DNA of 64,000 nucleotides from a phage. The stretch lies in the sequence record PZ445437.1; one strand, given 5' to 3'. The notes under the pieces were generated by a model, which made no database searches, was not told where the DNA came from, and saw only the letters and a program-made list of their open reading frames with translations. Within the stretch, counting starts at the first letter, position 1, and each line of letters opens with the position of its first letter. Made by a program: the position numbers and the translations under genes. Of this stretch, positions 4,394 through 46,288 are shown in pieces.

Positions 4394-4580
4394 TATCTAA
4401 AATGTTGAAGTTAAAAGATACAGCCCAGTCAGTGCAGACTGTAACCTTTTTAATACAATTATCTTCAACCTCTAGCGGTTCAAACCAATATTCAATAATT
4501 TCTTTATGCCCAATATCATCTTTTACTTCGCATTCAAAATGCTGACTCATCATAACATTTTTAAATTCATCAAAAGTCAT
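4317..4580 (-). CDS. hypothetical protein (46.2-like)
   Basis: 87 aa ORF whose start overlaps the gp47 stop (translational coupling). Confidence 0.45.
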   Translation of the reverse strand: MTFDEFKNVMMSQHFECEVKDDIGHKEIIEYWFEPLEVEDNCIKKVTVCTDWAVSFNFNILDNDTPKSLQDMAVSCIKDAYCEVFDI

Positions 4581-5596
4581 TGTGTTGCCTCTACATATAG
4601 CTGGTTTGCATATTGAATAAGTGCTTCACGGTCAGAATCAGTGATGTCTGGAATTGCATTAATGTATTCTTCCATCAACGTCTGAAGAGATTGAACTTCA
4701 ACTTCTTCACTGTCATCTGACTCGACAGAGTTATCAATTTTTGACACAACTCGTAATGAATGCACAACTTTTTCTAGTTCAGATTCGAACTTCGTTAGAT
4801 TTTTGTCTACTTCAGTTACTATAACACGTACTGATAGATTTGTAAAATCTTTATAGTCAATTTTTCCTTTAAATGGATAATGAATTCTACGATGCCAGGT
4901 AGTGTTGTTTGGAATAAATTCCATTCGTTCTGTTTCTGTATCAAACATCCAGAACCCACGAGGGTCATTCTCGTCACCTGCAGTTAGTGTCCATGGTGTC
5001 CCAATATATCTGACGTTAGCAGCCTCAGAGATAGTATGGAAGTGACCAGACCACACTTCTTTATAAGTCTTAAGGAAATCAGGTTCAAGACCATGAGATT
5101 TCATTCCTTTATAAAAATAAAATCCGTTCAGTTCCCAGTGACCAACGCAAAAAGAAGCAGATGAAGTTTTGATGTGTTCAAGAATTTCACCAGTATTTTC
5201 TTCACACATCCAAGGAATTAAATCAATTAAACATCCGTCAAAATCTACTGTAGTAGGCTTATCATATACTTTAACATTAGGATATTTAGCCAAAAGCTCA
5301 GTAGAGGCATTTGGATGCATTACATTTTTATAGTGGAGATCGTGATTTCCTACAATAGTGTGTAATGTAATTCCAGCATCATCAAGCGTTTGAACTATTT
5401 CACGGGCAAACTCCATAGTTTTATGTGTGATCGCTTTTCTCACATCAAAAATATCACCATATTGAATCCAGGTAGTAATTCCATTTTTCTTAGAATATTC
5501 TATTGCTTGTTTAATTCCATCAATTTGAATACCGCGAATCCACTCATCATCAGCTTTAACGCCTAAATGCCAATCACCCAAGTTTAGTATTTTCAT
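4577..5596 (-). CDS. 47: recombination endonuclease subunit gp47 (Mre11/SbcD-like phosphoesterase)
   Basis: 339 aa; calcineurin-like phosphoesterase motifs (GDWHLG, GDIFD, GNHD, GHWE, GHFH). Confidence 0.92.
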   Translation of the reverse strand: MKILNLGDWHLGVKADDEWIRGIQIDGIKQAIEYSKKNGITTWIQYGDIFDVRKAITHKTMEFAREIVQTLDDAGITLHTIVGNHDLHYKNVMHPNASTELLAKYPNVKVYDKPTTVDFDGCLIDLIPWMCEENTGEILEHIKTSSASFCVGHWELNGFYFYKGMKSHGLEPDFLKTYKEVWSGHFHTISEAANVRYIGTPWTLTAGDENDPRGFWMFDTETERMEFIPNNTTWHRRIHYPFKGKIDYKDFTNLSVRVIVTEVDKNLTKFESELEKVVHSLRVVSKIDNSVESDDSEEVEVQSLQTLMEEYINAIPDITDSDREALIQYANQLYVEATQ

Positions 5597-6197
5597 GGTG
5601 TCTTTTCCATCCTAATTTAGCTGCTTTTGAAACTAGTTCTTTAATTTTTCCTTTTGTCCATTCAGGACCAGGAGGTTCATGACATAACATTTGCTTAACT
5701 CCGTTATTATACCATTTTTTACCTTTATTATGTGATGAAGCTTTAAATTTATTTGACCTTCCTTTTACATAACCTTCTGGAATATAAGGCAAAAAGGCAG
5801 ATTTTCCTGTTAATGGATCATGTGAATGTATATTTCCTTTACAATTATGAGAACCATATAATGGATGATTTTGTCCTTTATTATCTCTTCCAAATGAACC
5901 TTTTGGAGCAGCATATGACATATTAAAGAATAATGGATTTTTAACTGCATCATGCAATCGTTGATAATATAACTCGCATTTAATAGCTTCTTCACGCGTA
6001 TCAAATTCAGCTAAAATGCATGAATCAAATAAGTGAGGATTATCTGAAAGCTCTTTATTATAAATTTTCTTATACTTTTTAGATAAAACTGAACCATGAT
6101 ATCCAGCTAAATGCCTATCTAAAGACGTAGATCCAATATAAAAAGGAGGAAGTTTATCTCCACTATATATTGTTAAATAAGTTATATATTTTTTCAT
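5574..6197 (-). CDS. free-standing GIY-YIG-like homing endonuclease (Seg-like)
   Basis: 207 aa; N-terminal YLTIYSGDKLPPFYIGST (GIY...YIG-type motif) with downstream R and E; C-terminal repeated NUMOD3-like motifs (HPLYGSHN, GKKWYNNG); sits between 47 and a-gt. Confidence 0.6.
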   Translation of the reverse strand: MKKYITYLTIYSGDKLPPFYIGSTSLDRHLAGYHGSVLSKKYKKIYNKELSDNPHLFDSCILAEFDTREEAIKCELYYQRLHDAVKNPLFFNMSYAAPKGSFGRDNKGQNHPLYGSHNCKGNIHSHDPLTGKSAFLPYIPEGYVKGRSNKFKASSHNKGKKWYNNGVKQMLCHEPPGPEWTKGKIKELVSKAAKLGWKRHHENTKLG

Positions 6198-6358
6198 ATA
6201 TCAAGAACCGTCATTGAAATGCAAAATAAAATTATTGAAATAAATCCATCTGGAGTGCTAAAGAACCCAATCCAACATGCTCTAGTGAATAGATAAAATG
6301 CAAGAAAAAGTATCACATATCCAAGAAATATCATTATATCAAACTCCGTATAAAGCTA

Positions 6359-6373
6359 AAGGGCCGAAGCCCT
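6359..6373 (-). terminator. GC stem-loop (GGGCCGAAGCCC) immediately downstream of a-gt
   Basis: Same tetraloop hairpin as at 1050; flanked by T runs on both strands. Confidence 0.5.
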
Positions 6374-7576
6374 TTATTTTGTAATAATGTCAAACTGTTC
6401 TTTAAAGCAGAAGCTTGAATCTTGATGCTGATACAAAAATTCATATGCTTTTTCTCGCTCACGGTCATAAAGAGCTCGGTCAGATGACAGTTCTTTAATA
6501 CGTTCAAATGTTGATTCCATATCATTTTCATCAAACCAAATGATACCGCTATCATGCGAGGTCAAAGGAGTATTATCAACACGGAATTTTAAATTTTCGC
6601 CAGTAGATTTCCAAAATACCGGAATTGTTCCACATGCACCAAGCTCGAGATGAGTATATTCTAAAGAACGTTGTAGATATTTTTTATCCAACTTACTCAA
6701 CTGATAACCAAAACCGGATTTACTCATACGCTCAAGCATTTCGCTATTTACATAACGATCGAGAATTTGCGTTGGCAAATTAGGAGCAATTTTAATTTGG
6801 TCTACTTGATGAAGACGATAATACTCGTATTGAATTCCTTTTTCTTTAATAGGAATGAACGCTGGAGAACGTTCCAGACCTTCCATAATAGTACTTAGTC
6901 CTGCAGGTTTAAGATGTTTTTCATGAAAATCAAACATCTGATAAAAACCTTTCCATGTAGTCGTACGACCAATCCAACGGTTGATATTCATGTTAATTTC
7001 AGAAACATCTTTCCAGTAGGTTGACCGAACCTTCGCAATATCCATAGGAGGCTGAAAGTTATATACTGTCGGTGCTTCTTCAATATCATCAAACAGAGAA
7101 ACAGTTTCTGGATACCATTCTTTCATCAGAACTTTATTAAAATCACCATTATCAGAATGGCTAAAAATAACATCAGCTCGACGAACAGTTTCTTCTAATC
7201 CCAAATTTCGACGCAAAGAAAGAGAAGAATGGTCATGCTGATAAACTACAACACGAACCGAAGGTTTAATGTTATCAATAATTTTTTTATAGTTATTAAT
7301 AGTGTCTTCTTCAACCGAAGTAGCAGGAACTGAATTGATAATTAGAATATCACAATCATTTACCAGCTTAAGTGTTTTATCATATTCTTTTGCCAATAAA
7401 ACCGGAATTGAAAATGATTTATAATCATGCGCGCAATTACGAGTAAATGATTTATCTTTAGCATAAACCAAAGTCACTTCATGACCATTTTTAATAAACC
7501 AATCACGTTGCTCGAGTGAGAATTTTGTTACACCACAACCTTCAAGACCTCGAGCCATAAAAATACATACTTTCAT
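6374..7576 (-). CDS. a-gt: DNA alpha-glucosyltransferase
   Basis: 400 aa; MKVCIFMARGLEGCGVTKFSLEQRDWFIKNGHEVTLVYAKDKSF... near-identical to recalled T4 alpha-GT. Confidence 0.92.
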   Translation of the reverse strand: MKVCIFMARGLEGCGVTKFSLEQRDWFIKNGHEVTLVYAKDKSFTRNCAHDYKSFSIPVLLAKEYDKTLKLVNDCDILIINSVPATSVEEDTINNYKKIIDNIKPSVRVVVYQHDHSSLSLRRNLGLEETVRRADVIFSHSDNGDFNKVLMKEWYPETVSLFDDIEEAPTVYNFQPPMDIAKVRSTYWKDVSEINMNINRWIGRTTTWKGFYQMFDFHEKHLKPAGLSTIMEGLERSPAFIPIKEKGIQYEYYRLHQVDQIKIAPNLPTQILDRYVNSEMLERMSKSGFGYQLSKLDKKYLQRSLEYTHLELGACGTIPVFWKSTGENLKFRVDNTPLTSHDSGIIWFDENDMESTFERIKELSSDRALYDREREKAYEFLYQHQDSSFCFKEQFDIITK

Positions 7577-7819
7577 TTAATATCCTCTTTGTTTTGGTTT
7601 ATTTTACCAAAAATTTATAAAGCAATATAGGAGCCGAAGCTCCTATCCGCATAATACGCCATACAGAGGCTCGTTAGAACTTTTAAATTTTATGCGCTTA
7701 TATTTTATAGTTCCTTCTGCTTTAGCTTTATCATGAGACTCTTTAAAGCGTCTCATCATTTCCTCTTTAGAGGAACGAATTTTATTATAATCTATTTCAG
7801 AAGTCTGGGTGTTCATCTT

Positions 7820-12389: not shown

Positions 12390-13218
12390 TTATATATTTC
12401 CAATTATAGCCTTCAACACTTTTACGTTCGCCATTTAAACATTTTAAAATATTTCCTTTGCTAGAAATATTAAAATATTTTGCTGCGTCTGGTATATAAT
12501 TAAATGTTTTTAAAAGAACACCATCTTTATATGCGCCAAATAAATTAAGAGTATATTTTTCTCGAAGACGCTGATGTTTCCTTTTCATAACCTCAGGATT
12601 TGCATACGCCAACTTCAATGAATTTCTGTGTTTTTCTTTTACTTCAGGTTTTTGCATTGCTAACTTAGTTAGCCTGGAAATTTTATTTCTAACTTCGTCA
12701 GTTTTCATTGCATTTGACAAATTTAATAAAGTTTTATTTCTAACTTCAGGTTTTTGCATTGCTAGCTTAGTTAGTTCTCTATGTCTTTTTCTAAAATCGT
12801 CATCCTTCCATATATTTTTCGATAATTTTGACATAGAGCGGTGAAATAATTCCTTTTCACTGGAATACAATTTAAAAATTTCATCCAATTCATCCGCATT
12901 AAATCTATCGGTATTCGAGTTTATCATTCTATGAAAGGCATAACACATTTTACTATTGCTTGTTTTAGCTAAATAGTAATGAGCTAACGCATGGTCATAA
13001 TATGACAAATTAACAATATTCCATTTATCTGTTTTATATTCAGGAAATATAGATTTGGGAAGCACGTGATGTGCTTCCGTTTTTCCTTTTATTTTAGGAT
13101 TATTATAATTTTTTGTTATCAAATCAACATATGACAATAGTAAATCATTATTTTCTTCAAATATTAAAGATAATTTATCATTCACAAAATCGCAAGGATA
13201 AAATCTATCATAATTCAT
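12379..13218 (-). CDS. mobD: HNH-family homing endonuclease-like protein MobD
   Basis: 279 aa between nrdG and nrdD; HNH-like EAHHVLPKS...HALAHY; repeated basic motifs; N-terminus MNYDRFYPCDFVN copies the nrdG N-terminus. Confidence 0.75.
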   Translation of the reverse strand: MNYDRFYPCDFVNDKLSLIFEENNDLLLSYVDLITKNYNNPKIKGKTEAHHVLPKSIFPEYKTDKWNIVNLSYYDHALAHYYLAKTSNSKMCYAFHRMINSNTDRFNADELDEIFKLYSSEKELFHRSMSKLSKNIWKDDDFRKRHRELTKLAMQKPEVRNKTLLNLSNAMKTDEVRNKISRLTKLAMQKPEVKEKHRNSLKLAYANPEVMKRKHQRLREKYTLNLFGAYKDGVLLKTFNYIPDAAKYFNISSKGNILKCLNGERKSVEGYNWKYINEL

Positions 13219-15032: not shown

Positions 15033-15844
15033 AATTCTAATTTATCCTTTTGAAATTCTTCGTCTAAATATGGGTTCCAACCCATTTTAAACCTTTTGAT
15101 GAAATTATCAATTCTAAATTTCGGTAAGTTTAAATCCGCAAAAATAGATGATTTACTTTTAAAATCTGGACTTAAATAATCATATAAAATTTCTGCGTAT
15201 TTTAACCATAATATACAAGTACCAGATTTAATTGCTCTCGGAGTTTTCCAAGGTTTTACACCATACATCGGATTTCCGCTTCCTTTATGCCTGATAGAAG
15301 ATGAAATTCCAATTTTAATTTTAGCTTCCTTTGTATGCGAAAATCCACGATGTGGATTTTCTTTCCAGTATTTTTTAGAAGCTTCTGATATTTTCTTTCT
15401 GGCTAAATTAGTATGATGCTTTCCATAAAATCCATGATTTTTGCCTTTATTACGATTTCTTTTAATCATGGTTATTGATTGCTTTTCTCTAGTTTCTTTA
15501 GAAGGAGAAATACCATATGTCGTAAATTTGCCATCAGCATATGCTAAATTAAAATACTCTTTATTCCATACATCTTTTTCTATATTCTTTTGAAATTCAG
15601 CTTCAATGCTAGTTATTTGTTCATCTCCGACTAATTGAAAATATAATATTTCAACTTTCGGCGTTTCTTTCAATAAGGCTTTTTGAAATTCGGAAGATGA
15701 CGAAGACGAATAATAAAATTTACCATTTTTATCAATAATATTCGTTCCATCAAAAGTGCAATTGGTTTTACTTCCAATGTAATAATATGGTGGGGTTTTA
15801 GCATTAATTCTATTAATAAATGATAGTTTATATACTACATTCAT
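15023..15844 (-). CDS. free-standing GIY-YIG homing endonuclease-like protein (Seg-like)
   Basis: 273 aa; N-terminal VYKLSFINRINAKTPPYYYIGSKT (GIY-YIG-type) and NUMOD3-like motifs (GKNHGFYGKHHT, GNPMYGVKP); 3' end overlaps the nrdD start by 10 nt. Confidence 0.65.
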   Translation of the reverse strand: MNVVYKLSFINRINAKTPPYYYIGSKTNCTFDGTNIIDKNGKFYYSSSSSSEFQKALLKETPKVEILYFQLVGDEQITSIEAEFQKNIEKDVWNKEYFNLAYADGKFTTYGISPSKETREKQSITMIKRNRNKGKNHGFYGKHHTNLARKKISEASKKYWKENPHRGFSHTKEAKIKIGISSSIRHKGSGNPMYGVKPWKTPRAIKSGTCILWLKYAEILYDYLSPDFKSKSSIFADLNLPKFRIDNFIKRFKMGWNPYLDEEFQKDKLELCL

Positions 15845-36691: not shown

Positions 36692-37300
36692 TTATATATT
36701 GTTAATTTGATTTAGAATTCTTTTTGCTTGAGTATGACTTACGCCAATATGCTTAGCATATTTAGATAATTCACCACGCTTAGAAAAATCATATAATTTA
36801 GAAATTTCTATTCTTCTTTTTCTTTCATCCACAGAAACTTTTGCTTCGTTTGCTTTTGCTATTTTACGTTTAGCTTCTTGAGAATGAGTTTTACCAGCAA
36901 AGCCATTCTTCATTAATCCATTTGAAGACCATCCTTTTAATTTTCCGTTAGAATGTGCCTTTTTAACACCCAATGAAATTAATTCGCGTTGCTGGTCTGT
37001 CATAGGATAATTATTTATATGATCCCATCCACCTTCACCGCCAAGTTTTAAATTATACACATCTGGTCTATTTAAAAACTCTTCTGTAACAATATTTTTC
37101 TCGGCTTCAAGCATAGATTCTTTATCATCAAAATACTCTAATATTTCTTTAGAAAAATTTTCTATACCATACTTATCTTGGGCTCTTTTTAATAATTTAC
37201 CAGAACCCATATATCCATCATCTAAATTTTCGGTAGAATGCACACCAATATAAATTTTATTATTAATTTTATTTGTTATTTTATAAAGATAAAAATGCAT
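36692..37300 (-). CDS. segB: GIY-YIG homing endonuclease SegB-like, inside the tRNA cluster
   Basis: ORF 36692..37342; MHFYLYKITNKINNKIYIGVH GIY-YIG-type motif plus NUMOD-like C-terminus; start at the internal Met is preferred because the longer ORF abuts tRNA-Gly. Confidence 0.65.
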   Translation of the reverse strand: MHFYLYKITNKINNKIYIGVHSTENLDDGYMGSGKLLKRAQDKYGIENFSKEILEYFDDKESMLEAEKNIVTEEFLNRPDVYNLKLGGEGGWDHINNYPMTDQQRELISLGVKKAHSNGKLKGWSSNGLMKNGFAGKTHSQEAKRKIAKANEAKVSVDERKRRIEISKLYDFSKRGELSKYAKHIGVSHTQAKRILNQINNI

Positions 37301-45216: not shown

Positions 45217-45711
45217 ATGGAAGGTTCTTCTATCGACGTCACCTTTACCGCTCAATTAGAAACAGGTGAAACGTTAGTATCTATAAATATAACTAGTTAC
45301 GAAGAAACTCCTGGGGTTTTAGTAGAAGAAAATCGCTTATATGGAACATATGAATCTGTGTTTGGATTTGGAAATGACGCGTTGAAATATCGTTTAGGCG
45401 ATGAATTTAAAACTTCTGCTTCATGGGAAGAACTTCCTACTGATTCTGATACTCAGTTGTATTTGTGGAAAGCTCCTCAGAATCTCCAGAAGACATTCAC
45501 TTACGAAGTAACATTAATATATGACTACCAAGAACAAAGTGAATCTGGAGGTTCTGGTAGTAATTCTAGGTCATCTTCTGATACTACTGAACCAACAGAT
45601 CCTCCTGCTCCAGTAAGAAAAACTCTCGTTAAAAATTATACTAAAACTATAGTTGGAAATTGGAGTCGTTGGGCTAATAAACTGAGAGAATATGTCTATG
45701 CAAGACCATAA
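45217..45711 (+). CDS. 5.1: hypothetical protein gp5.1
   Basis: ORF 45154..45711; start placed at the ATG preceded by RBS AGGAGA (MEGSSIDV...). Confidence 0.55.
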   Translation: MEGSSIDVTFTAQLETGETLVSINITSYEETPGVLVEENRLYGTYESVFGFGNDALKYRLGDEFKTSASWEELPTDSDTQLYLWKAPQNLQKTFTYEVTLIYDYQEQSESGGSGSNSRSSSDTTEPTDPPAPVRKTLVKNYTKTIVGNWSRWANKLREYVYARP

Positions 45712-46288
45712 ATATTTTTATTTGTATTCAATAACTAATAAAACAACAGGAAAAATTTATGTAGGCGTCCACAAAACTTCAAATTTGGATGATGGGTATA
45801 TGGGTTCTGGCGTTGCCATTAAAAATGCCATTAAAAAATATGGCATAGATAATTTTTATAAGCATATTATAAAATTCTTTGAATCTGAAAAAGCTATGTA
45901 TGACGCAGAGGCAGAAATAGTCACAGAGGAATTTGTTAAATCTAAGAAAACTTATAATATGAAACTAGGCGGTATCGGTGGCTTCCCAAAACATAACACA
46001 GCGGGTGCTAAAAATGGATTTTACGGTAAATCTCATTCGCGTGAAACTAGATTGAAAATTAGCATTAAATCGTCTAGAAAAAGAGGGCCTAGAGGGCCTA
46101 GAGGTAAAACTCTGAAGATGTGTGGCGCCAATAACCCAAGGTATGGCAAAATAGCCCCTAATGCTAAATCTGTTATTATCAACGGCGTTTTATATAAAAG
46201 TATTAAAATCGCAGCTAAAGCTCTTAATATAAATTATAGTACCTTAAAGGGGCGAGTTAAAGCGGGGTATTATAAATGTCAGGATTAA
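45692..46288 (+). CDS. segC: GIY-YIG homing endonuclease SegC-like
   Basis: 198 aa; [20 protein letters not shown] motif, paralogous to the SegB-like protein; between 5.1 and 5.4. Confidence 0.7.

What the first reader, a model, noticed from the sequence alone, without database searches (positions are those of the whole stretch)
5574..6197. Free-standing GIY-YIG homing-endonuclease-like gene between gene 47 and a-gt
A 207-aa ORF with an N-terminal GIY-YIG-type motif (TIYSGDKLPPFYIGST) and NUMOD3-like C-terminal repeats overlaps the 5' end of the Mre11-like gene 47. I do not recall a seg or mob gene at this site in T4, so this may be an additional mobile endonuclease insertion next to essential recombination genes.
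Basis: partly seen in the sequence, partly recalled or inferred. Interest (0 to 1): 0.55.

Follow-up and report, generated by a model that had tools for sequence, protein, structure and literature searches.

The report
SegE-like homing endonuclease gene before gene 47
This T4-like phage carries an extra selfish-DNA gene (a GIY-YIG "homing endonuclease" related to T4 SegE) inserted just in front of the recombination-nuclease gene 47; it is an ordinary, uncharacterised member of a well-known class, with an unusually clear predicted target site.

Summary

Of 512 Tequatrovirus records, 68 carry the gene. Of those, 67 also carry four synonymous changes in codons 3-6 of gene 47. The 435 records with an empty T4-type junction carry the T4 version, and 9 empty sites carry the variant. 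The single exception is an UNVERIFIED, indel-ridden record. Same-site relatives occur in at least four other T-even genera or groups, with dN/dS about 0.15-0.26.

Best reading: an active, SegE-like intronless homing element that targets the 5' end of gene 47, with its own genome protected by the silent changes. Cleavage itself is untested. This is a new member of a known kind, of modest interest.

The parts
5574..6197 (-). Free-standing homing-endonuclease gene (207 aa), SegE-like GIY-YIG
   Evidence: ORF. PHROG 10820 E=1e-94. Pfam GIY-YIG E=3e-4. Protein 100% identical in many Tequatrovirus records.
5913..6188 (-). N-terminal GIY-YIG catalytic domain (aa 4-95)
5757..5846 (-). C-terminal repeat 1 (aa ~118-147, ...HSHDPLTGKSAFLPYIPEGYVKGR), predicted beta-hairpin; presumed DNA-binding module
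   Evidence: Strands at 123-126 and 133-136. Aligns to SegE CYTNGTKNIFIKPGELVPEGFVKG. No Pfam model.
5640..5729 (-). C-terminal repeat 2 (aa ~157-186, ...KKWYNNGVKQMLCHEPPGPEWTKGK), predicted beta-hairpin; presumed DNA-binding module
   Evidence: Strands at 161-164 and 169-172. Aligns to SegE FWVNNGAINKLIQPDGIIPDGFIKGR.
5597..6197 (-). 601-nt insertion relative to T4. The boundary is ambiguous by 7 nt because ATGAAAA occurs at both ends (6191-6197 and 5590-5596).
   Evidence: Window/T4 alignment. The insert is 29.8% G+C against 35% for the window.
5579..5588 (-). Four synonymous substitutions in codons 3-6 of gene 47 (nt +9, +10, +15, +18: ATT TTA AAT TTA in T4 becomes ATA CTA AAC TTG here); predicted cleavage-resistant version of the target
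   Evidence: The changes co-segregate with the endonuclease gene in 512 records. The chance of this clustering is about 2.5e-5.
5574..5596 (-). 23-nt overlap in which the endonuclease C-terminal tail (HENTKLG*) and gene 47 codons 1-8 are both encoded
   Evidence: The same 23-nt overlap occurs in metagenomic relatives L043-L045. Overlaps of 1-17 nt occur in other genera.
4577..5596 (-). Gene 47 (Mre11/SbcD-like recombination nuclease subunit), the predicted target gene
   Evidence: 99.7% aa identity to T4 gp47. T4 annotation.
6194..6334 (-). Gene 47.1 (46-aa predicted membrane protein). Its stop overlaps the endonuclease start as ATGA.
   Evidence: 100% identical to T4 gp47.1.
6333..6376 (-). 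UUCG-loop hairpin after a-gt, followed by a MotA-box-like AGCTTTA, a 12-nt spacer and TATAAT; a possible middle promoter for the 47.1 / endonuclease / 47 unit (inferred)
   Evidence: Hairpin found. The sequence is identical to T4. The promoter reading is my comparison with the T4 middle-promoter consensus and was not tested.

Best explanation
The ORF encodes an active, SegE-like GIY-YIG homing endonuclease that spreads by intronless homing. It has no promoter of its own. It is transcribed with 47.1, 47 and 46, and it is translated from the initiation region that serves gene 47 in T4 (the ATGA overlap with 47.1). Its own 3' end supplies the new sequence upstream of gene 47. In a mixed infection with a relative that has the empty site, the C-terminal beta-hairpin modules would bind the T4-type sequence at the start of gene 47 (...ATGAAAATTTTAAATTTAGG...). 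The GIY-YIG domain would then cut nearby. The break would be resected and repaired by the phage recombination machinery, using the endonuclease-carrying genome as template. That copies the gene and its flanking markers into the recipient. The carrier genome would be protected by four silent changes in codons 3-6 of gene 47. Shown here: the gene anatomy, the fold, the homology to SegE, the patchy distribution, the precise insertion, the allele association and purifying selection. Inferred: enzymatic activity, the exact recognition and cleavage site, resistance of the variant allele and the repair pathway.
For: Fold and family:
- A profile built from 40 relatives matches T4 SegE best among the T4 GIY-YIG proteins. 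The match (E=6e-13, in a search of only 10 T4 proteins) is colinear over both domains. BLASTP against SegE gives 28% identity over 193 aa.
- SegE is an experimentally active free-standing endonuclease that targets the adjacent gene uvsW (PMC2988022, Table 1).

Mobility signature:
- The insertion is a clean 601 nt. The 206 nt aligned upstream are 100% identical to T4.
- The protein is present at >=90% identity in 68 records, while about 500 closely related records match the surrounding region.
- The 58-nt junction queries give this table: endonuclease + variant allele 67; empty site + T4 allele 435; empty site + variant allele 9; endonuclease + T4 allele 1. Fisher p is about 1e-72, ignoring relatedness.
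- The one exception is an UNVERIFIED_ORG record. It has homopolymer indels both inside and outside the gene.
- Four of the eight window/T4 differences in 399 aligned nt fall within 10 nt next to the insertion, and all four are synonymous (p about 2.5e-5).

Site-locked lineage under selection:
- Relatives 60-76% identical sit directly upstream of gene 47 in a Klebsiella phage, Winklervirus, Mosigvirus, Dhakavirus and metagenomic T-even contigs.
- dN/dS among these copies is 0.15-0.26.
Against: - No cleavage or inheritance data exist for this protein.
- The position equivalent to the catalytic Arg27 of I-TevI is R28 here but K, Q or N in relatives, so the active-site chemistry is not fully canonical.
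- Pfam GIY-YIG is just below its gathering score, although SegE is too.
- Sequence searches of PDB chains found nothing.
- The four silent changes lie within 18 nt of the insertion, so tight linkage alone would make them co-segregate. They could mark the edge of imported donor DNA rather than immunity.
- Nine empty sites carry the variant allele, so the variant exists without the gene.
- A few copies carry a +1 frameshift (ESh36, ZCEC15).
- Free-standing T4 endonucleases usually cut hundreds of bp or more from their gene (PMC2988022), so the true site may lie elsewhere.
Confidence: 0.7

Rival explanations
1. The gene is a real homing endonuclease, but its recognition or cleavage site is not codons 3-6 of gene 47. 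On this view the four silent changes are hitchhiking donor sequence: the right-hand edge of the DNA segment that first brought the gene into Tequatrovirus from another T-even genus. The true target would lie further into 47, or in 47.1 or a-gt.
For: - The first 15 nt of the variant allele (ATGAAAATACTAAAC) are identical to the gene 47 start of a Dhakavirus-like phage with an empty site (L023). This is compatible with import from another genus.
- Known free-standing T4 endonucleases often cut hundreds of bp or more from their gene (PMC2988022).
- Nine genomes carry the variant allele without the gene.
Against: - No other difference within about 300 nt on either side segregates with the gene. 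Carrier genomes have at least two different downstream gene 47 haplotypes, yet all share the 4-nt cluster.
- The one carrier with the T4 allele is an unreliable record.
- A hitchhiking tract that ends exactly after four silent changes, with no amino-acid change, is what selection for a resistant but functional essential gene would also produce.
Confidence: 0.2
2. The gene is an inactive or decaying remnant of a homing endonuclease. It invaded recently, is no longer cutting, and is simply carried along or on its way to loss.
For: - The Arg27-equivalent column is not conserved in the family.
- Frameshifted copies exist (ESh36 and ZCEC15, +1 A in an A-run).
- Nine empty sites with the variant allele look like the state that follows loss.
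- Tequatrovirus copies are so alike (>=97.6% aa) that selection within the genus cannot be measured.
Against: - The reading frame is intact, at >=99% aa identity, in 50 records.
- dN/dS is 0.15-0.26 between same-site copies in different genera.
- The Tyr, Glu and Asn catalytic-motif positions are invariant or nearly so.
- The frameshifts are in homopolymers, and one of the two records is UNVERIFIED, so they may be sequencing errors.
Confidence: 0.1
3. The gene is retained mainly for a function useful to the phage. It might exclude or cripple co-infecting relatives by cutting their essential gene 47. Or it might be kept because its 3' end now supplies the translation-initiation region of gene 47.
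For: - The endonuclease took over the original gene 47 initiation region. Gene 47 now starts inside the endonuclease reading frame.
- An overlap of 1-23 nt is conserved in most genera.
- A phage homing endonuclease with a host-beneficial side effect has been reported: SegB and anti-defence amplification (PMC13096335, abstract only).
Against: - Nine genomes have a precise empty site with the same gene 47 allele, so gene 47 works without the endonuclease.
- In Serratia phage LC53 the endonuclease ends 121 nt before gene 47.
- No RNA structure stands out at either start codon.
- Marker exclusion is the same biochemical act as homing, not a separate mechanism.
Confidence: 0.1

Closest known systems
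T4 SegE (free-standing GIY-YIG homing endonuclease between inh and uvsW; targets uvsW)
   Same: - Best T4 match to the family profile (E=6e-13, in a search of only 10 T4 proteins) and 28% identity over 193 aa.
- Same size (205 vs 207 aa).
- Same two-part layout: a Seg-type GIY-YIG domain with the G-Y-x-G-S motif, then two 'NG...P(E/D)G(F/W/Y)xKG(R/K)' beta-hairpin repeats.
- Same lifestyle: a free-standing gene immediately upstream of, and in the same orientation as, the DNA-metabolism gene it is thought to target.
- Nearly the same sub-threshold Pfam GIY-YIG score (21.6 vs 21.4 bits).
   Different: - A different insertion site and a different predicted target (gene 47 rather than uvsW).
- It lacks the His two residues after YIG that SegA-E share (YIGSTS here, YIGKHS in SegE).
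- It does not reach any score on Pfam SegE_GIY-YIG.
- It ends inside its target gene.
- Its activity has not been tested.
I-TevI (td intron GIY-YIG homing endonuclease), catalytic domain 1LN0/1MK0
   Different: - It is not intron-encoded.
- There is no detectable sequence similarity to PDB chains.
- It has no zinc finger, NUMOD3 helix or helix-turn-helix DNA-binding domain.
- The Arg27 column is not conserved in this family.
NUMOD3-bearing phage GIY-YIG endonucleases that share the same N-terminal domain (e.g. Yersinia phage TG1 'GIY-YIG homing endonuclease', Enterobacteria phage IME281 protein)
   Same: The N-terminal domain is 45-70% identical. 18 of the 40 aligned relatives carry Pfam NUMOD3.
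   Different: Their C-terminal halves are NUMOD3 repeats, and they sit at other genomic sites. The window protein and its same-site relatives have the beta-hairpin modules instead. This looks like a domain swap that goes with a change of target.

Membership tests
GIY-YIG nuclease superfamily | Catalytic-domain fold like the I-TevI, UvrC or Eco29kI N-terminal domain | tested here: met
GIY-YIG nuclease superfamily | The two Tyr motifs ('GIY' and 'YIG') | tested here: met
   Y7 and Y11 (TYLTIY) and Y20-I21-G22 are at least 90% conserved in 40 relatives.
GIY-YIG nuclease superfamily | Conserved catalytic Glu and Asn (I-TevI E75 and N90) | tested here: met
   E75 and N92 are invariant in the 40-sequence alignment. 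Their equivalence to I-TevI E75 and N90 rests on motif order and the Pfam match to profile positions 2-74. No residue-level structural superposition was done.
GIY-YIG nuclease superfamily | Conserved Arg after the YIG motif (I-TevI R27) | tested here: inconclusive
   The window protein has R28, but the column holds R, K, Q or N in relatives. The Seg proteins of T4, which are active enzymes, also diverge here.
GIY-YIG nuclease superfamily | Pfam PF01541 gathering score (22.6 bits) | tested here: not met
   21.4 bits, E=3.1e-4. Calibration: the experimentally active T4 SegE scores 21.6 bits. 15 of 40 relatives match at E<=0.01.
T4-type Seg free-standing homing endonucleases | Sequence homology to Seg proteins | tested here: met
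   Family profile against T4 proteins: SegE 6e-13, SegC 2e-7, SegG 7e-7, SegD 2e-6, SegA 6e-5, SegB 6e-4. BLASTP vs SegE gives 28% identity, E=2e-5.
T4-type Seg free-standing homing endonucleases | Free-standing ORF between conserved genes, present or absent among close relatives with precise boundaries | tested here: met
   A 601-nt insertion between 47.1 and 47. About 68 of 512 Tequatrovirus records carry it.
T4-type Seg free-standing homing endonucleases | The carrier genome has a variant (resistant) target sequence | tested here: inconclusive
   Four silent changes in gene 47 codons 3-6 segregate with the gene (67/1 vs 9/435). Resistance itself was not measured, and linkage is an alternative explanation.
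T4-type Seg free-standing homing endonucleases | Site-specific double-strand cleavage of the empty allele | not testable with these tools
   This needs purified protein and DNA substrates.
T4-type Seg free-standing homing endonucleases | Preferential inheritance with co-conversion of flanking markers in mixed infection | not testable with these tools
   This needs phage crosses. The only indirect sign is that carriers have at least two different flanking haplotypes.
NUMOD3 / I-TevI-type DNA-binding domain | Pfam NUMOD3 (PF07460) motif or the I-TevI zinc finger | tested here: not met
   No hit at E<=10 for the whole protein or for the C-terminal 108 aa. Relatives with a different C-terminus do have it.
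HNH endonuclease (the label given by RefSeq and PHROG 10820) | HNH / beta-beta-alpha-metal motif | tested here: not met
   There is no HNH Pfam hit, and the fold and motifs are GIY-YIG. The 'HNH endonuclease' label is a misannotation.

The most novel reading that the evidence does not exclude
This may be a site-locked endonuclease lineage that has merged with the control region of an essential gene. In several T-even genera its reading frame took over gene 47's original translation start and ends inside gene 47's first codons, so its C-terminal tail and gene 47's initiation region are encoded by the same bases. That would couple expression of the Mre11-like nuclease to translation of the selfish gene. 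It would also favour retention of the element. In addition, the two C-terminal beta-hairpin repeats shared with SegE may be an undescribed DNA-binding module. Swapping that module in place of NUMOD3 would then be what retargeted this lineage to gene 47.
Probability: 0.15. Interest if true: 0.5.

Novelty: new member of a known kind. Interest (0 to 1): 0.3.

Why it matters
Free-standing homing endonucleases shape which genes win in mixed T-even infections, and only the T4 set has been studied. This one offers a very clean natural experiment. The flanks are identical to T4. The predicted target is 10 nt wide and is defined by four silent changes. Hundreds of sequenced genomes fall into all four allele/gene classes, and a culture-collection phage (BASEL Bas39) carries the identical protein. 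The predicted target is the start of the gene for the Mre11-like nuclease, the enzyme that T4 recombination uses to process double-strand breaks. So the element would cut the gene for part of the machinery it depends on. On the practical side, the widespread 'HNH endonuclease' annotation of this protein family is wrong and should read GIY-YIG (Seg-like).

Tried and rejected
- Sequence search of PDB chains, with the single protein and with a 40-sequence profile, found nothing relevant. Fold comparison was needed instead.
- NUMOD3 was not found.
- Own promoter: there is no late-promoter TATAAATA within 18 kb of the gene, and no excess of sigma-70-like sites. I therefore treat the gene as a promoter-less cassette.
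- RNA structure hiding either start codon: folds of 100 nt around the endonuclease start, the gene 47 start and the T4 junction are no more stable than shuffled sequence (z +0.6 to +1.2).
- Defence-system relationship: PADLOC gave only a weak generic 'homing endonuclease' hit.
- Independent replicate of the silent-change pattern in Dhakavirus-like phages: carriers and non-carriers do differ synonymously at codons 3-6. But background divergence there is about 10%, and the first 30 nt are not enriched for differences, so I do not count it.
- IMG/VR held seven Tequatrovirus loci, all with empty T4-type sites and none with this gene.
- Degraded copies: KNP1 is an assembly gap (a run of N). ERS-1 has homopolymer indels inside and outside the gene. 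Neither is good evidence for decay.
- Literature: four full-text searches found no paper describing an endonuclease at the 47.1/47 site. The T4 mobile-element review does not list one.

Full report
**1. What is at the coordinates**

One search lists an ATG-initiated ORF at 5574..6197 on the minus strand. It encodes 207 aa beginning MKKYITYLTIYSGDKLPPFYIGSTS. Downstream lies gene 47 (4577..5596, 339 aa), which is 99.7% identical to T4 gp47. Upstream lie a 46-aa ORF (6194..6334) that is 100% identical to T4 gp47.1, and then a-gt (6374..7576). The ORF start overlaps the 47.1 stop as ATGA. Its last 23 nt overlap gene 47. The window comes from a Tequatrovirus that is not identical to any record in the phage collection. 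The best 25-kb match has 95% coverage at 98.3% identity.

**2. Comparison with T4**

T4 (NC_000866) has 47.1 abutting 47, with nothing between them. Aligning the two sequences gives the following:
- The 206 nt upstream are 100% identical.
- A 601-nt block is present only in the window, bounded by ATGAAAA on both sides.
- Gene 47 follows, with eight differences in the remaining aligned sequence.
- Four of those eight fall at nt +9, +10, +15 and +18 of gene 47. T4 has ATT TTA AAT TTA; the window has ATA CTA AAC TTG. All four changes are synonymous.

The chance that four of eight differences fall in one given 10-nt stretch of 399 aligned nt is about 2.5e-5. The insert is 29.8% G+C, against 35% for the window.

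**3. What the protein is**

*Profile searches.*
- Pfam gives only GIY-YIG (aa 4-84, E=3.1e-4, 21.4 bits, gathering score 22.6) and no NUMOD3.
- PHROG 10820 matches at 1e-94, but that family is labelled 'HNH endonuclease'.
- NCBIfam and PADLOC add nothing.
- The sub-threshold Pfam score is not a concern. The experimentally active T4 SegE scores 21.6 bits on the same model.

*Predicted structure.* An AlphaFold2 model built on 40 relatives has mean pLDDT 81.9, with values above 90 over aa 1-95.
- Foldseek's best PDB hits are the I-TevI catalytic domain (1LN0, 1MK0; probability 1.0).
- Sequence searches of PDB chains found nothing.

*Conserved residues.* In the 40-sequence alignment Y33, G35, S39, F57, A71, E75 and N92 are invariant. 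Y7, Y11 and Y20-I21-G22 are at least 90% conserved. The column equivalent to I-TevI R27 is R here but K, Q or N in relatives.

*Closest T4 relative.* I extracted all T4 GIY-YIG proteins from the T4 record and searched them with the family profile. SegE is the best match. The match (E=6e-13, in a search of only 10 T4 proteins) is colinear across the whole protein. SegC, SegG, SegD, SegA and SegB follow. I-TevI gave only a marginal hit in its C-terminal half, and I-TevII gave none. BLASTP against SegE gives 28% identity over 193 aa.

*C-terminal half.* It holds two repeats (aa ~118-147 and ~157-186), each predicted as a beta-hairpin followed by P-E-G-(Y/W)-x-K-G-(R/K). They align with the two equivalent repeats of SegE. 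No Pfam model covers them in either protein.

*Relation to NUMOD3.* 18 of the 40 relatives carry NUMOD3 repeats after the same N-terminal domain, and such relatives sit at other genomic sites. Only aa 108-116 of the window protein align with the start of a NUMOD3 motif. The lineage looks like a C-terminal domain swap.

**4. Distribution**

The 3.3-kb region matches 599 phage records. The protein is found at >=90% identity in only 68 of them. To avoid partial matches I designed four 58-nt junction queries, each combining one upstream context with one gene 47 allele.

| Upstream context | Gene 47 allele | Records with >=80% coverage |
|---|---|---|
| Empty site (47.1) | T4 allele | 435 |
| Endonuclease 3' end | Variant allele | 67 |
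| Empty site (47.1) | Variant allele | 9 |
| Endonuclease 3' end | T4 allele | 1 |

Fisher p is about 1e-72 if relatedness is ignored. Because the changes are tightly linked to the insertion, this is an association and not proof of immunity.

- The single exception, ERS-1, is an UNVERIFIED_ORG record. It has homopolymer indels both inside and outside the gene.
- ESh36 (UNVERIFIED) has a +1 A frameshift in an A-run. ZCEC15 shows the same two-piece tblastn pattern.
- KNP1 is an assembly gap.
- One of the nine empty-variant genomes was fetched. It shows 47.1 abutting 47 exactly as in T4, but with the variant codons.
- Carriers have at least two different gene 47 haplotypes further downstream. The gene is therefore not tied to one flank.

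**5. Beyond Tequatrovirus**

Relatives 60-76% identical sit immediately upstream of gene 47 in other T-even groups:
- Klebsiella phage SmallBear, Serratia phage LC53 (Winklervirus), Escherichia phage AV116 (Mosigvirus) and IME540/QL01-like phages (Dhakavirus);
- three metagenomic T-even contigs.

The reading frame ends 1-23 nt inside gene 47 in all but LC53, where it stops 121 nt short. dN/dS among these copies is 0.15-0.26, although dS is saturated. This is therefore an old lineage under purifying selection that is specialised for this one site. In Dhakavirus-like phages, carriers and non-carriers also differ synonymously at codons 3-6. Background divergence there is about 10%, so I do not count that as a replicate.

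**6. Expression**

- There is no late-promoter TATAAATA within 18 kb of the gene, and sigma-70-like sites are not enriched.
- The a-gt hairpin and the sequence after it (AGCTTTA, 12 nt, TATAAT) are identical to T4. By my reading they resemble a MotA-type middle promoter. This is an inference.
- The gene therefore looks like a promoter-less cassette, as described for several T4 seg and mob genes (PMC2988022).
- It uses the initiation region that serves gene 47 in T4, and it supplies new upstream sequence for gene 47.
- No unusual RNA structure was found at either start codon.

**7. Interpretation**

The best-supported reading is an active SegE-like homing endonuclease with these features:
- it targets the T4-type start of gene 47;
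- it spreads by double-strand-break repair in mixed infections;
- it protects its own genome through the four silent changes.

The distribution shows the states expected of a homing-endonuclease life cycle: empty sensitive sites (435), occupied resistant sites (67), possibly decaying copies, and empty resistant sites (9).

Three rival readings remain:
- the silent changes are merely linked donor sequence, and the true site lies elsewhere;
- the gene is now inactive;
- the gene is retained for a host-beneficial or regulatory role.

None is excluded without biochemistry or crosses.

**8. Novelty**

I found no paper on this element in the held library. The T4 mobile-element review lists no endonuclease at 47.1/47. 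GenBank and RefSeq already annotate the ORF as 'putative homing endonuclease', 'hypothetical protein' or, wrongly, 'HNH endonuclease'. It is a new, uncharacterised member of a well-known kind. A specialist would not be surprised by it, but it is a tidy and directly testable case.

Noticed in passing
window 7577-7642 (between a-gt and the a-gt.2 homologue at 7643-7816): T4 carries the HNH endonuclease gene mobB between a-gt and a-gt.2. This phage has no gene there, only a 66-nt spacer with a hairpin at 7627-7646. The neighbouring intergenic site therefore shows the opposite presence/absence state to T4.
   Followed up: partly
window ~36850-37300 (-), ~45692-46096 (+), ~15467-15844 (-), ~12394-13131 (-): tblastn with T4 proteins finds other endonuclease genes in the window. 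One is SegB-like (83% identity over the N-terminal 117 aa). One is SegC (98.5%). One is a distant SegG-like gene (40%). One is an HNH mob-like gene next to nrdD, only 27-38% identical to T4 mobB, mobC, mobD and mobE. The gene 47 endonuclease is single-copy in the window.
   Followed up: no
database annotation of the protein family (PHROG 10820; RefSeq records such as NC_054919, NC_054925): This GIY-YIG protein is widely labelled 'HNH endonuclease'. The fold and motifs show that the label is wrong.
   Followed up: yes
L014, L017, L018 (IMG/VR T-even genomes, gp47 about 72% identical), gene 47 nt 1-29: These distant phages with empty sites keep the exact T4 sequence ATGAAAATTTTAAATTTAGGTGATTGGCA at the start of gene 47, although the next 45 nt are heavily diverged. 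This could reflect constraint on the initiation region or past gene conversion. It also means the predicted target exists outside Tequatrovirus.
   Followed up: no
window 6374-7576 (a-gt): The a-gt protein is only 91% identical to T4 a-gt but 99% identical to that of other Tequatrovirus loci, some with and some without the endonuclease. There appear to be two a-gt allele classes, independent of the endonuclease.
   Followed up: no
phage record PV654520.1 ('Pseudomonas phage vB_PSGBLB0006', 142 kb): This record is labelled as a Pseudomonas aeruginosa phage. It matches this T4-like coliphage region at 98% identity and carries the same endonuclease. The host label is probably wrong, or the sample was contaminated.
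   Followed up: no
L032 (Shigella phage ESh36) and PQ871103 (ZCEC15), endonuclease codon ~158: ESh36 has one extra A in the run GGTAAAAAATGG, which splits the endonuclease ORF. ZCEC15 shows the same two-piece tblastn pattern. This is either early decay of the gene or a shared homopolymer sequencing error.
   Followed up: partly
C-terminal repeats, window 5640-5846 (-); T4 SegE and SegB C-termini: A repeated module, 'x-N-(N)-G ... P-(E/D)-G-(W/F/Y)-x-K-G-(R/K)', predicted as a beta-hairpin, recurs in this protein and SegE (twice each) and in SegB (once). It has no Pfam model. A weak, non-significant resemblance to ribosomal protein bL32 appeared.
   Followed up: partly
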